Shown in pieces: positions 1 through 64,000 of a DNA stretch of 64,000 bases. Location: NCBI GenBank assembly GCA_963750205.1, contig CAVVRJ010000016.1:163400-227399 (forward strand). The letters run 5' to 3'. Both the position numbers and the translations under genes were made by a program. The notes beneath the pieces were generated by a model that was given only the letters and a program-made list of their open reading frames with translations, was not told the DNA's origin and searched no databases. The number at the start of each line of letters is the position of its first letter. The stretch's first letter is position 1. This stretch comes from an uncultured Planctomycetota bacterium. GTDB lineage: Bacteria; Planctomycetota; Phycisphaerae; Sedimentisphaerales; Anaerobacaceae.

Positions 1-35
1 GATTGCTTCGTCGCTGCGCTCCTCGCAATGACATG
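1..35. repeat. right arm of the GATTGCTTCGTCGCTGCG-CTCGCAATGACAT element (truncated by window edge)
   Basis: gattgcttcgtcgctgcgctcctcgcaatgacat matches 10705..10734 almost exactly. Confidence 0.55.
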
Positions 36-80
36 TGGATGTTCATTCTCTTAAAGGCGCTGAGATTCATAGCCACTCCT

Positions 81-1705
81 CTACCTGAGAAGGCTGTCTA
101 TTTTCCCGGTCCCGACTGCGCGTTTCCAGGCGAAGTACTCGTCGAGCACGGTCAACTTGTCCACATTGGGAACCGGCCCAATGTGAGGCTGGCTGTCCAG
201 ATACATTACGGTTGCTTCCCGTTCGTTGAAGGCCAGCCACGGCGGCAGTCCCTCGCCGTTAGGGTTTCCTTTCTTGGCGAAGTTGGTCCAGTAGGCAGCC
301 ATTGTCTCCGAGAGTTTCCTGTCCTCGTCGGTGTATCGTACCCCGAGCATCTGAGTCGAGGTGTCGAAACACATACGGCATCTCAGAACCATGGGAGGCG
401 CCGGTAGATTTGAAGAAGGCCGAGAACAGGGAGGGGGCCAGCTTCTGATCGAAGTAGTAGCCGAACACCTTCGAGGTTCCGGTCTTCGATTGCAGTCGGG
501 CCCAGGACCACGTGGGCCAGGCAAAGAGGGTATCGCGAAGGATATCGGCCTGCGCCCGGAAGGTCTGGCCGGGCGTCTGGCCGGGATACAGCCGTCAGAA
601 CCTTTTCGGCGAACGGCCCAAAGCGGTCGCGGCGTACTTTTCTCATATTGCTCGGGGGTCGTGGCTTGGACGAACATGGAGCCTTCATCCGAATTCGTGC
701 CGATGAGCACGGGCACGTCGTTGTATTGGCCCGCTTCGTAGAGCTTGTATTGATCGTCCACGATCACGTAACCGTCAATGACGGGCCAGAGACCGCCCCC
801 CTGAGCGGCCGGGTCTTTCAGCCATTTTTCGGGTGGGACCTGGCGGAGCTCGGCCAGCGAATTGGCGCCCATGCGCTGGGCGAATTCCACGCCGGCCGAT
901 TCGGCGCCAGCCAGAAGCTGCATGCTGGCGGCTTTTTCGCCTTTCGGGCCGGATAGAAGGAACCGCCGCTCTCGCAGATCGCCCGGTGGAACAGGCCCTT
1001 GGCCAACGGCGAGGCCGCCAGCATGCTGACCGAGATCCCACCGGCCGACTCGCCGAAGATCGTCACGCGGCCCGGATCGCCGCCAAAGGCTTTGATGTTC
1101 CGTTGCACCCACTGAAGAGCGGCGATTTGATCGAGCAGGCCGTAATTGCCGGAGACCTTTCGCGGAGATTCGGCCGTCAGGTCCGGGTGCGCCAGGAATC
1201 CGAGCGGGCCCACGCGGTACGCGATGCTGACGACGATGACTCCCATCTTCGCCAGTTGCTCGCCGCTGTAGAGGGGCGTGGAGGTCGCGCCATGGCGAAC
1301 CCGCCGCCGTAGATCCACACCATGACCGGCAGACTCTCCGTCGGGGATTGGGCCGGCGTCCACACGTTCAGATAGAGGCAATCCTCCGAGGTCTCGACCT
1401 TGGGAAAGAACGGGATATAGAACTGGATCTGCGGGCAGGCGGGAGCATAAGTGGTCGGCCTTGAGGACACCGTCCCAACTCTTGACCGGTTGCGGCGGCC
1501 GCCAGCGCAGATTGCCTACGGGTGGCGCGGCAAAGGGAATGCCTTTGTAGACGGTGATTCCTGCCTCTGCGGTACCTTCGACCAGCCCGCCCTCCACCTT
1601 CACGGGGGCCGCCACGGAGGCGACGGTAGCGAACGCCATCAGGTAGACAGCGGTCATAGCTATAATCAGTTTCAGTCTCGATCTCATCTTCCATCGCCCC
1701 TGCAA
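81..1705 (-). pseudogene. carboxylesterase type B (para-nitrobenzyl-esterase-like), secreted; split over >=4 reading frames
   Basis: Minus-strand ORF fragments 818..1705, 1177..1470, 81..1112 and 259..468 read consecutively as one carboxylesterase_B. Evidence: signal peptide [28 protein letters not shown]; [11 protein letters not shown]; [10 protein letters not shown]; catalytic-Ser motif FGESAGG; C-terminal FGYYFD...HGSEMPYVF. Frame changes are needed near 1380, 1180, 1110 and 470. Confidence 0.6.
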
Positions 1706-61529: not shown

Positions 61530-61680
61530 ACAGACCCCTTCGATGACGTTCCTTTGGATGAACACGGACATCGTATGGTCGCGACTTGTTTTGGGCAAGC
61601 ACTATGGTAGACTGGTGTACGATGTATCGCCCCCGAGGCAAGGGGCAGCACACGGTTTGTGACAGTCTGAGGAGACCTCC

Positions 61681-64000
61681 AATGAGAGTAAGACGATCCT
61701 GCAGTCTCGTGTCGGCGCTGTTGGTCTGCGCGGGGTTCGGTGGGGCAAGCCCTGCCCTGCACGCCCAGACCACCTCCGGCGGCCTCAATCTCGCCGTCGT
61801 GGCCAAGCCTTCCTGCTCCTACGTCTCCGGCGACACCACGCCGGCGGCCCTCAATGACGGCTACGATCCGCGCAGCTCGCGCGACAACCGCCGGGGGTCG
61901 TACGGCAACTGGCCCCGCAGAGGCACGCAATGGGTGCAGTACGATTGGAGCCAGTCCATCAGCACCAATAAGATCGACGTGTACTGGTGGGACGACCAGC
62001 AAGGTGTTCGTCTGCCCAAGGTCTCGCGTCTGCTCTATTGGAACGGCGACGCCTTCGTCCCCGTGACCAACGCCTCCGGGCTCGGCGTGGCGGGTAACCG
62101 CTACAACACTACGACCTTTGACGAGGTCCAGACGGCCAAGCTCCGGCTGGAGATCGACGCCAACGATGCCTATTCGACCGGTATCCTCGAATGGAAGGTC
62201 TACGATTCCGGCAAGTCGCCCGACTTCCCCCCGATGGTCACGGCCGGCATCGACCGCGACACGGTGCTGGGAGGCAAGACCTATTTGTCCGGGACGATCA
62301 AGGCGCTCAAAGGCGACGCCGGAACGGTGACTTGGAGCAAGGCCTCCGGGCCCGGCACAGTCACGTTTGAGGACGCCAAAGCGGCAGTCACGACGGCCAC
62401 GTTTTCCGAGAAGGGCACGTACGTCCTGCAATTGACAGCAGAGAAGAACTCTGGTGGGGCAAGCGGGACCCCAAACGCGAACGATTCGCGTTTGGGAGCC
62501 CGACCCACCCTACGTGCCTCGTCCACGCTGCTCGTTAAAGTGGTCTCTCCGCCGCCGGCGGACCGCCTGGATGTGGTCTACACGAAGGAATACCAGATCG
62601 ACAGCCCCCTGTGGAATTCACGGGCCAAGGCCCTGATCGTCCACTGGATTCCCCATTGCATCGACCAGATCAACGACCCGAATCTCCGGCAAGGCCAGGG
62701 CGGGATCGACAACTTCATCGAAGCGGCCAAGGCCCTCCGCGGCGAGGCCCACGGGCGTCACAAGGGCTATGTCTTCTCCAACGCCTGGGTGCATCAGACG
62801 GTGGAGTCGATGTGCCTGGCGCTGATGGTCGATCCGCGCGGCGATCCGGAGATCATCAAGGCCCAGGAGAGGATGAAGGCCACTCTGGAGGACTGGATCC
62901 CCAAGATCCTGGCCGCCCAGGAACCCGACGGCTACCTCCAGACGGCATATACGCTCTCCGACCGCAATCGCTGGCCCCAGCGCTGGAACCCGCCGCAGCG
63001 AGGCAACCACGAGGGGTACGTCGCCGGCTACTTCATCGAGTCGGCCATCAATCATTACACGCTGACCAACGGCACGGACAAGCGCCTGTACAACGCCGCC
63101 AAGAAGCTGGCCGATTGCTGGGTCGCCAACCTCGGCCCGGGCAAGAAAGACTGGTACGACGGTCACCAGGAAATGGAGCAGGCCCTGGTGCGGTTCGGCC
63201 GATTCGTCAACGACATGGAAGGCCCGGGCAGCCACGGCGATAGTTACATCAAATTGGCCAAGTTCCTGCTCGACAGCCGCAAGGGCGGCAGCGAATACGA
63301 CCAGAGCCACGTCCCGGTCCAGCAACAGTACGAGGCCGTCGGGCACGCGGTCCGGGCCTCCTACACCTATTCGGGCATGGCCGACGTGGCTGCCGAGACG
63401 CACGATGTCGATTACCAGAGCGCCGTCATGAGCCTCTGGGACAACATGGTCAACAAGAAGTATTACGTCACGGGCGGCATCGGCAGCGGCGAGACCTCCG
63501 AAGGCTTCGGCCCCAATTACTCGCTGCGTCAGAGCGCCTACAACGAGTCCTGTTCGACCTGCGGCCTGATCTTCTTCCAATACAAAATGAACCTCGCCTA
63601 CCACGACGCCAAGTACGCGGACCTGTATGAGGAGTCGCTCTATAACGCCCTGCTCGGCTCGATCGATCTGGAAGGCAAGAACTTCTATTACGACAACCCG
63701 CTGGACTCGCGCGGCCCCCGCTATGACTGGCACGTTTGCCCGTGCTGCGTGGGCAACATCCCGCGCACGCTGCTGATGATCCCCACTTGGACCTACGTCA
63801 AGGGCAAGGACGGCCTCTACGTCAACCTGTTCATCGGCAGCACGATCAACGTGGAGAAGGTCGCGGGCACCAACGTCCAAATGGTGCAGCAGACCGATTA
63901 CCCCTGGAGCGGCAAGGTCGCCATTACTGTCAACCCCGAAAACGCCAAGCGGTTCTCGATTTACGTGCGCGTGCCCAACCGCACGACGAGCGAGTTGTAC
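61681..64000 (+). CDS. GH127 beta-L-arabinofuranosidase (DUF1680) with N-terminal discoidin-like domain; 3' end beyond window
   Basis: Not in the ORF track because there is no stop within the window; I translated it myself from ATG 61681. Signal peptide MRVRRSCSLVSALLVCAGFGGA. GH127 Cys cluster DWHVCPCCVGNIPRT. A roughly 60-nt palindromic repeat lies in frame at about 62455-62515. Confidence 0.7.
62455..62515. repeat. composite palindromic element inside the GH127 CDS, in frame
   Basis: The right half of the GTAGGGTGGGGC...GGTGGGGCAAGC...CCACCCTAC family carries an embedded copy 4 of the CCCAAACGCG family: ggtggggcaagcGGGACCCCAAACGCGaacgattCGCGTTTGGGAGCCCGacccaccctac. It encodes SGGASGTPNANDSRLGARPT, which sits between the discoidin-like and GH127 domains. 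Confidence 0.65.

What the first reader, a model, noticed from the sequence alone, without database searches (positions are those of the whole stretch)
1..64000. Very high density of apparent frameshifts, concentrated in long secreted CAZyme genes
At least 35 frame changes are needed to read the recognisable proteins. Examples: esterase B needs 4 or more; the GH at 1748-4112 needs 4 or more; the 3.9-kb GH at 51834-55765 needs 7 or more; the 3-kb discoidin protein needs 5 or more. Many conserved genes of 1-2 kb are intact (MoxR, DUF58, DUF4350, Gfo, HyfB-like, flotillin, the ABC-F at 41718, GH127). Where resolvable, the lesions are single-base indels in short homopolymers (vapC: CCC->CC at about 45835). 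No in-frame stop codons were seen inside the out-of-frame patches; ettA regains the same frame after about 100 nt. This pattern fits indel-type sequencing or assembly error (long-read or low-coverage MAG) better than ancient pseudogenes. The bias towards CAZymes could also mean relaxed selection on a polysaccharide-utilisation repertoire. Either way gene calls here will be fragmented.
Basis: seen in the sequence. Interest (0 to 1): 0.5.

Follow-up and report, generated by a model that had tools for sequence, protein, structure and literature searches.

The report
Single-base insertion errors fragment many genes
This stretch of a Sedimentisphaerales (Planctomycetota) genome carries about 65 stray single-base insertions and deletions that break otherwise well-conserved genes; they look like assembly or sequencing noise, not gene decay, so it is a data-quality problem.

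Summary
About 65 single-base frame changes are needed, not 35. The GH2-like gene has about 16, the discoidin gene 14, the carboxylesterase 6, GH106 4 and EttA 3. About 51 are extra bases in the window and 14 are missing bases.

Once corrected, each broken gene aligns end to end with intact homologues from independent assemblies (84-92% amino-acid identity for the closest). In the restored frames dN/dS is 0.13-0.18, like intact neighbours. There is no excess of amino-acid changes and no convincing nonsense codon. The EttA patch that scrambles the LSGGE motif is 44/45 identical to a relative after three bases are removed.

Insertions fall evenly across codon positions and also occur in an intergenic spacer. 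They avoid homopolymers: 17 of 25 resolved insertions are isolated bases.

CAZyme genes are hit 4.7 times more often per kb. Position explains this better than function. EttA sits in the hot region and is hit, while GH127 and GH27 are nearly clean. Dense patches cross gene borders.

Verdict: a non-biological consensus error, most likely unpolished or low-coverage long-read patches. Low interest.

The parts
102..1687 (-). Carboxylesterase (PF00135) gene. Six frame changes: an extra base near 1453, 632, 591 and 350, and a missing base near 1292 and 935.
   Evidence: The Pfam COesterase hit runs across the junctions. Frameshift-aware alignment to six homologues of about 530 aa agrees.
1751..4112 (-). 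GH106 gene. Four single-base insertions at plus-strand G2322, G2604, T3542 and C3666.
   Evidence: After correction all 786 aa align to L164 at 89% identity. The inserted bases were resolved by DNA alignment at 88% nt identity.
4145..5430 (-). CE15 glucuronyl esterase gene. One missing base at 4469 (GG to G on the plus strand).
9458..10643 (+). HcyBio (PF01837) gene. One extra base near 10065; the possible interval is 9633-10330.
   Evidence: A single Pfam stretch covering profile positions 1-348 of 349 crosses the junction. Codon-usage path and ORF-overlap interval agree.
13009..13735 (+). DUF4129 protein gene. A probable extra base near 13466.
   Evidence: Codon-usage path. The DUF4129 domain is found only in the second frame. 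No homologue alignment was made.
17472..18445 (-). SpoIIM-like gene. One missing base near 17681.
   Evidence: The Pfam SpoIIM stretch crosses the junction. Codon-usage path agrees.
24918..25756 (+). HyfC-like NADHdh gene. One missing base near 25604.
   Evidence: In the stitched protein the NADHdh profile positions 24-295 cross the junction. In the ORF alone the hit stops at profile position 239.
26434..27901 (+). HyfF-like Proton_antipo_M gene. One extra base near 27313.
   Evidence: The Pfam stretch covering profile positions 1-288 of 294 crosses the junction. Codon-usage path agrees.
27898..29411 (+). HyfG-like hydrogenase large subunit gene. Extra bases near 28303 and 28670.
   Evidence: Full-length alignment to the L002 orthologue at 93% identity.
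30379..30868 (-). Gene for a 169-aa protein. Missing bases at 30600 and 30520.
31126..32828 (-). Flotillin (Band 7) gene. A missing base at 31213 that changes the last 28 or so residues.
33933..34716 (+). DUF218 gene. An extra base near 34611.
34747..37914 (+). LTD-CotH gene. An extra base near 36787 and a missing base near 37111.
   Evidence: Codon-usage path. A CHB_HEX_C domain is cut at the start of the third ORF. No homologue alignment was made.
39884..41181 (-). GH27 alpha-galactosidase gene. A missing base near 40235.
   Evidence: Pfam Melibiase_2 hit. The conserved C-terminal blocks continue in another frame.
45773..46180 (+). vapC (PIN) gene. A missing base near 45831-45835 in a CC or GG run.
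   Evidence: The PIN domain crosses the junction. The sequence was read directly.
47775..49454 (+). EttA gene. Three isolated inserted bases (T48213, T48307, C48347). The ORF stays open but the LSGGE signature is scrambled.
   Evidence: After removing the three bases the patch is 44/45 identical to L002.
49565..50447 (+). GH16 gene. Extra bases near 49843 and 50123, and probably a third near 49595.
   Evidence: Pfam GH16 and SKN1 stretches cross the junctions. Codon-usage path and frame reading agree.
50552..51799 (-). A 421-aa ORF that looks intact but hides a missing base at 50844 and an extra base near 50726.
51837..55761 (-). GH2-like gene of about 1300 aa.
- Extra bases near 55749, 55444, 55247, 54952, 54919, 54758, 54343, 54099, 53687, about 53390, 53328, 53264, 53175 and 53007.
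- Two extra bases near 54786.
- A possible short shifted patch at 53417.
- No frame change in 51837-53000.
   Evidence: After correction 1293 of 1314 aa align at 84% identity. Six independent homologues give the same events. Positions 54428-55761 were resolved to the base against L163.
55762..56075 (.). Intergenic spacer between the two divergent genes. Relative to L163 it carries 5 single-base and 2 two-base insertions and 3 deletions.
56076..59078 (+). Discoidin/DUF1349 gene of about 990 aa.
- Extra bases at 56131, 57221, 57363, 57378, 57508, 57565, 57688, 57804, 58022, 58031, about 58143, about 58555 and about 58733.
- One missing base at 57315 (CCCC to CCC).
- No frame change in 56140-57215.
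   Evidence: Seven homologues give the same events. P0141 is 92% identical. Base-level alignment to L163.
59262..61529 (-). GH36-like gene of 756 aa. A missing base near 60742 in a G run and an extra base near 60444.
41718..43613 (+). Control: the ABC-F gene, with no frame change.
   Evidence: All 631 aa align to L083, L084 and L085 at 88-92% identity.
61709..64000 (+). Control: the GH127 gene, which runs off the end of the window, with no frame change over about 750 aa.

Best explanation
The frame changes are non-biological. Stray single bases, mostly insertions, were left in or introduced into the consensus when this Sedimentisphaerales genome was sequenced and assembled. The true genes are intact and functional.

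Shown:
- The breaks are single-base events.
- Removing or restoring one base at each site recovers full-length, conserved proteins under purifying selection.
- The events ignore codon position and gene borders, and they cluster in patches.

Inferred:
- The patches are stretches where a noisy long-read consensus was not corrected, because of low local coverage, no short-read polishing, or gap filling in a hybrid assembly.
- The error profile is almost pure indels, with more insertions than deletions, placed at random and outside homopolymers. From my own knowledge this resembles PacBio continuous-long-read noise more than Nanopore, 454 or HiFi homopolymer errors.
For: 1. After correction, every broken gene aligns end to end with intact homologues from independent assemblies.
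- GH2-like: 1293/1314 aa at 84% identity, with the same events against six references.
- Discoidin: 92% identity to P0141.
- GH106: 786/786 aa at 89% identity.

2. Selection signals in the restored frames are normal.
- dN/dS is 0.13-0.18 in the most broken genes, against 0.09-0.14 in intact GH127 and HyfI.
- Window-specific amino-acid changes are no more frequent in dense patches than in clean stretches or in the relatives.

3. Nonsense codons are missing.
- There is at most one in-frame stop in 4157 restored codons.
- If 41 indels had accumulated neutrally at 5-20 substitutions per indel, 7-28 new stops would be expected (P from 0.007 to 2e-11).

4. Insertions outnumber deletions.
- The census gave 48:15 (binomial p = 3.8e-5).
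- It becomes about 51:14 after two '-1' events proved to be two extra bases each.
- Bacterial mutation is biased towards deletions (my own knowledge).

5. All coding events are exactly one base long.

6. Insertions fall evenly between codon positions: 8 between positions 1 and 2, 7 between 2 and 3, and 5 between 3 and 1. They also occur in the intergenic spacer 55762-56075.

7. In EttA, three isolated inserted bases within 134 nt scramble the ABC signature. The hidden frame is still 44/45 identical to a relative.

8. The events are patchy.
- The index of dispersion over 2-kb bins is 3.2.
- A dense patch at 53.0-56.13 kb spans two divergent genes and their spacer.
- Clean stretches of more than 1 kb lie inside the same genes.

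9. Spurious frameshift pseudogenes caused by platform, coverage and assembler are well documented (PMC11017572, PMC12007338).
Against: - No reads or coverage data are available, so the artefact is inferred and not observed.
- The profile of isolated, non-homopolymer insertions is not the one most often reported for current long-read assemblies. Those are dominated by homopolymer indels (PMC12007338, PMC9262707). So naming the technology is uncertain.
- Events are 4.7 times denser in CAZyme genes (p = 3e-9). A purely random error process does not predict this without the added assumption of patchy coverage or polishing.
- No relative closer than about 90% nt identity was found. A few intergenic indels, and events supported only by codon usage, could be real differences.
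Confidence: 0.88

Rival explanations
1. The frameshifts are real. The lineage is losing its polysaccharide-degrading genes under relaxed selection.
For: - Frame changes are 4.7 times denser per kb in CAZyme genes than in other genes.
- Several long secreted enzymes carry many breaks.
Against: - dN/dS in the restored frames is 0.13-0.18, the same range as in intact genes.
- The window lineage shows no excess amino-acid change.
- At most 1 nonsense codon is seen where 7-28 would be expected.
- There are about 51 insertions to 14 deletions, opposite to the bacterial deletion bias.
- No multi-base or large deletions occur inside the genes.
- Conserved non-CAZyme genes are hit as well: EttA, the hydrogenase subunits and HcyBio.
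- CAZyme genes GH127 and GH27 have 1 event in 3.6 kb, against 43 in 15.4 kb for the other CAZyme genes.
- Dense patches cross gene borders and leave more than 1 kb of the same gene clean.
Confidence: 0.07
2. The frame changes are homopolymer length miscalls of the kind typical for Nanopore, 454, Ion Torrent or low-pass HiFi data. This is the mechanism the first reader proposed.
For: Some deletions do lie in short runs: CCCC to CCC at 57315, a G run near 60742, GG to G at 4469, and the vapC site near 45833.
Against: - Of 25 insertions resolved to the base, 17 are isolated bases, 5 make a run of 2 and 3 make a run of 3.
- None lies in any of the 597 runs of 4 or more in the window.
- Random placement would put 48% of them next to an identical base, but only 32% are.
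- Insertions outnumber deletions more than 3 to 1.
Confidence: 0.05
3. The organism decodes these genes despite the extra bases, by programmed +1 ribosomal frameshifting, quadruplet decoding, or deletion-type RNA editing.
For: - Most events have the same sign (+1).
- Hidden frames are perfectly conserved.
Against: - The sites share no sequence motif.
- The inserted base can be any of the four.
- Codon position is uniform.
- The same kind of insertion occurs in non-coding spacer.
- Deletions occur too.
- Orthologues in close relatives have no frame change at these positions.
- Up to 16 events in one gene would make the protein yield negligible.
Confidence: 0.01

Closest known systems
Gene-fragmenting indel errors in long-read or low-coverage assemblies ('spurious pseudogenes'; Cooley & Wright 2024, PMC11017572; Kastor, PMC12007338; proovframe, bioRxiv 10.1101/2021.08.23.457338)
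   Same: - Single-base indels split genes into adjacent ORFs in different frames.
- Frameshift-aware alignment to relatives restores full-length proteins.
- Density varies along the contig.
   Different: - Insertions dominate here, at about 3.6 to 1.
- They are not associated with homopolymers. Published Nanopore and HiFi profiles are mainly homopolymer indels, often deletions.
Pseudogene-rich genomes of host-restricted bacteria, such as Mycobacterium leprae and Sodalis (my own knowledge)
   Same: Many neighbouring genes are interrupted by frameshifts.
   Different: - No nonsense codons.
- No larger deletions.
- No rise in dN/dS.
- Insertion bias instead of deletion bias.
- Essential-type genes are also hit.
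- Events are patchy within genes.
Programmed ribosomal frameshifting (prfB, dnaX, IS elements) and slippage at homopolymer contingency loci (my own knowledge)
   Same: A frame change is needed to read a functional protein.
   Different: - No slippery or repeat motif.
- Many sites per gene.
- The frame changes are not conserved in orthologues.
- They also occur outside coding sequence.

Membership tests
Sequencing or assembly indel artefact | Correcting single bases restores a full-length protein that matches intact homologues | tested here: met
Sequencing or assembly indel artefact | The restored frame shows normal purifying selection and no other decay | tested here: met
   dN/dS is 0.13-0.18. 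There is no excess of lineage-specific changes. Stops are at most 1 against 7-28 expected.
Sequencing or assembly indel artefact | Events ignore coding structure: codon position, gene borders and non-coding DNA | tested here: met
   Codon-position classes are 8:7:5. Insertions occur in the spacer 55762-56075. One dense patch spans two genes.
Sequencing or assembly indel artefact | The extra or missing bases are not supported by the reads or by an independent assembly | not testable with these tools
   No reads are available. Two intact window proteins are absent from the public collection. The closest DNA relative is about 90% identical.
Homopolymer-type long-read error (Nanopore, 454 or HiFi) | Indels concentrated in runs of the same base | tested here: not met
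   17 of 25 insertions are isolated bases, and none lies in a run of 4 or more. Only some deletions fit.
Genuine pseudogenes | A mix of frameshifts, nonsense codons and larger deletions, with a bias towards deletions | tested here: not met
   About 51 insertions to 14 deletions, all 1 nt long. At most 1 stop.
Genuine pseudogenes | Relaxed selection (raised dN/dS) on the broken genes | tested here: not met
Programmed frameshifting or recoding | A shared shift-prone motif at the sites | tested here: not met
   Contexts are heterogeneous and codon position is uniform.
Programmed frameshifting or recoding | The frame change is conserved in orthologues | tested here: not met
   Orthologues in L001, L002, L163 and L164 are single intact ORFs.

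The most novel reading that the evidence does not exclude
The extra bases are real. In that case a natural Sedimentisphaerales population has very recently gained dozens of random single-base insertions, concentrated in patches that include its glycan-degrading genes. A possible cause would be an insertion-prone mutational process. Alternatively the cell might tolerate the insertions through an unknown correction step at the RNA or translation level.
Probability: 0.03. Interest if true: 0.6.

Novelty: not a real feature. Interest (0 to 1): 0.1.

Why it matters
The value is practical.
- Gene calls in this window, and probably in the rest of this assembly, are split or silently scrambled.
- CAZyme counts, pseudogene counts and metabolic inferences drawn from it would be wrong.
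- Two ORFs look intact but encode scrambled segments: EttA and the 421-aa ORF at 50552-51799. ORF length checks would miss them.
- The assembly needs polishing, or frameshift-aware annotation, before any biological use.
- The insertion-rich profile outside homopolymers may help trace which assembly or polishing step failed.

Tried and rejected
- Exact look-ups of two intact window proteins found nothing, so the source assembly could not be identified.
- The metagenome scan with MoxR returned only distant relatives (68% or less) and no useful synteny.
- The genome scan with ABC-F gave the taxonomy (92% to a Sedimentisphaerales MAG), but the neighbouring genes were not syntenic.
- Plain tblastn could not place the shifts, because high GC keeps wrong frames open. 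I replaced it with my own frameshift-aware alignment.
- I tested whether both alleles of a synonymous SNP might have been stacked into the consensus of a mixed-strain population. I rejected this idea: 8 of 20 insertions lie between codon positions 1 and 2, and the phase distribution is uniform.
- I looked for a shared motif at the insertion sites. I checked by eye for GATC, a preceding GAC, CpG, and the same base two positions away. Nothing rose above chance expectation.
- GC content does not separate dense regions from clean ones.
- The window holds no sizeable internal repeats or paralogues that would explain the patches.
- Rfam and tRNA scans found nothing.
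Full report
**Origin and approach**

The window is 58-66% G+C in 2-kb windows. Its ABC-F protein (41718-43613) is 92% identical to that of a Sedimentisphaerales MAG, OY970194.1. At this G+C wrong frames often stay open, so ORF lists and plain tblastn cannot place frame changes.

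I used three methods:
- a six-frame codon-usage Viterbi path trained on long intact ORFs;
- Pfam scans of translations stitched along that path;
- my own frameshift-aware protein-to-DNA alignment against intact homologues.

The homologues came from two sources. Protein searches supplied some. The rest came from the contigs that encode them (L001, L002, L163, L164). Several of those contigs are syntenic with the window.

Yes, and it was under-counted.
- The GH2-like gene (51837-55761, minus strand) aligns over 1293 of 1314 residues at 84% identity to P0001. Six independent references give the same 14-15 frame changes.
- The discoidin/DUF1349 gene (56076-59078) needs 13 events, and P0141 is 92% identical.
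- GH106 (1751-4112) needs exactly 4, and the CE15 esterase needs 1.
- The carboxylesterase needs 6.
- EttA needs 3, HyfG 2, and the GH36-like gene 2.
- The 421-aa ORF needs 2, the 169-aa gene 2, and DUF218 and flotillin 1 each.
- Pfam domain continuity supports further single events in HcyBio, SpoIIM, HyfC, HyfF, vapC, GH16 and GH27.
- Events in DUF4129 and LTD-CotH rest mainly on codon usage.

The first census was 63 events. After refinement it is about 65, of which about 51 are an extra base in the window and about 14 are a missing base. Two events first scored as -1 (54786 and 58022) are really two extra bases each. ABC-F, MoxR and GH127 have no frame change.

**What the lesions look like**

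Two relatives are close enough for DNA alignment. L163 is 90% identical over 54428-58047, and L164 is 88% identical over 1748-5443.

Together they resolve 25 single-base insertions in the window.
- Seventeen are isolated bases with no identical neighbour.
- Five make a run of 2 and three make a run of 3.
- None lies in any of the 597 runs of 4 or more in the window.
- Random placement would give 52% isolated, against 68% observed.

So these are not homopolymer length errors. The inserted bases are C 11, G 7, T 5 and A 2.

The 20 coding insertions fall between codon positions 1|2, 2|3 and 3|1 as 8, 7 and 5. The spacer 55762-56075 carries five more single-base insertions relative to L163. The smaller class of deletions often does lie in short runs: 57315, about 60742, 4469 and the vapC site near 45833.

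**Artefact or decay?**

Several independent tests point to an artefact.
- dN/dS in the restored frames is 0.157 (discoidin against L163), 0.13-0.14 (GH2-like) and 0.18 (GH106). Intact GH127 and HyfI give 0.09-0.14.
- In three-way comparisons the window's own branch is no longer than its relatives' branches for the GH2-like gene.
- Window-specific amino-acid changes are no more frequent in dense patches than in clean stretches.
- Across 4157 restored codons of the five most affected genes there is one in-frame stop, TGA at 53417. A short -1/+1 patch explains it better.
- If 41 indels had accumulated neutrally at 5-20 substitutions per indel, 7-28 new stops would be expected. The ratio is my own assumption from general knowledge.
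- The excess of insertions (p = 3.8e-5) is opposite to the deletion bias of bacterial mutation (my own knowledge).
- All coding events are exactly one base long.

EttA is the clearest single case. T48213, T48307 and C48347 are three isolated inserted bases. Together they turn the segment holding the LSGGE signature into unrelated sequence, while the ORF stays open. Removing them gives 44/45 identity to the L002 orthologue.

**The CAZyme bias**

Events run at 2.32 per kb in nine carbohydrate-active genes and 0.50 per kb elsewhere, a ratio of 4.7 (p = 3e-9).
- Rates differ widely among the CAZyme genes themselves (p = 0.009).
- GH127 and GH27 together have 1 event in 3.6 kb.
- The non-CAZyme genes inside the hot region (EttA and the 421-aa ORF) have 5 events in 2.9 kb.
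- The dense patch at 53.0-56.13 kb runs through part of the GH2-like gene, the spacer and the start of the discoidin gene.
- That patch is followed by 1.1 kb with no event, then by 10 events in 0.9 kb.
- The last 1.17 kb of the GH2-like gene is clean.
- The index of dispersion over 2-kb bins is 3.2.

This is a positional pattern, as expected from uneven consensus quality.

**Mechanism**

It is shown that the process adds, and less often removes, single bases. It does so without regard to coding and almost without substitutions, and it acts in patches.

It is inferred that the patches are stretches of noisy long-read consensus that were not corrected. Possible causes are low depth, missing short-read polishing, or long-read gap filling in a hybrid assembly. 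Such gaps would tend to fall in strain-variable or multi-copy gene families, which could explain the apparent link with CAZyme genes.

PacBio continuous long reads have randomly distributed errors (PMC4678779). They are insertion-rich (my own knowledge). Published Nanopore and HiFi assembly errors are mainly homopolymer indels (PMC12007338, PMC9262707), which does not match this window. The platform cannot be established from the sequence alone. Spurious pseudogenes caused by platform, coverage and assembler are well documented (PMC11017572).

**Verdict**

The homopolymer mechanism and the relaxed-selection alternative are not. This is a data-quality artefact of low scientific interest but real practical consequence. 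Gene calls here are fragmented, and for EttA and the 421-aa ORF they are silently wrong.

Noticed in passing
45365-45485 and 46282-46402; partial copy at 41480-41534: A direct repeat of about 121 nt (94% identical) flanks the vapBC toxin-antitoxin cassette, with a partial third copy upstream of the ABC-F gene. Other short intergenic repeats: 59120-59216 with 11237-11331, 47631-47681 with 10660-10710, and 1-34 with 10702-10734.
   Followed up: partly
about 40432-40540, inside the GH27 gene 39884-41181(-): A Gly/Pro-rich low-complexity segment of about 40 aa sits between conserved GH27 blocks, and the codon model flips there. It could be a real linker or another scrambled patch.
   Followed up: no
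34.7-47.8 kb: Compared with the syntenic relative L002, the window has about 13 kb extra between DUF218 and EttA. The extra DNA holds LTD-CotH, GH27, ABC-F, a PD40 protein and vapBC. The stretch 43.6-47.8 kb has lower G+C (0.576 and 0.605 in the 44-46 and 46-48 kb bins) and unusual codon usage, which suggests acquired DNA.
   Followed up: no
L167:10001-13579 (protein P0246): In one relative the CE15 glucuronyl esterase and GH106 are called as a single fused protein of 1192 aa. In the window and in L164 they are separate adjacent genes.
   Followed up: no
53405-53425: The only in-frame stop in a restored frame is TGA at 53417 in the GH2-like gene. The local sequence fits a short -1/+1 shifted patch better than a nonsense substitution.
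   Followed up: partly
49565-49620: The GH16 signal peptide seems to start in a third frame. That implies a further extra base near 49595, so three insertions would sum to +3, as in EttA.
   Followed up: partly
22.8-30.3 kb: An operon resembling a Hyf-type (group 4) hydrogenase or Mrp antiporter complex: HyfB-, HyfC-, HyfF-, HyfG- and HyfI-like genes. It lies next to an EIIA-HTH regulator gene and is syntenic with L002.
   Followed up: no
whole window: No tRNA genes and no Rfam family at gathering score in 64 kb.
   Followed up: yes
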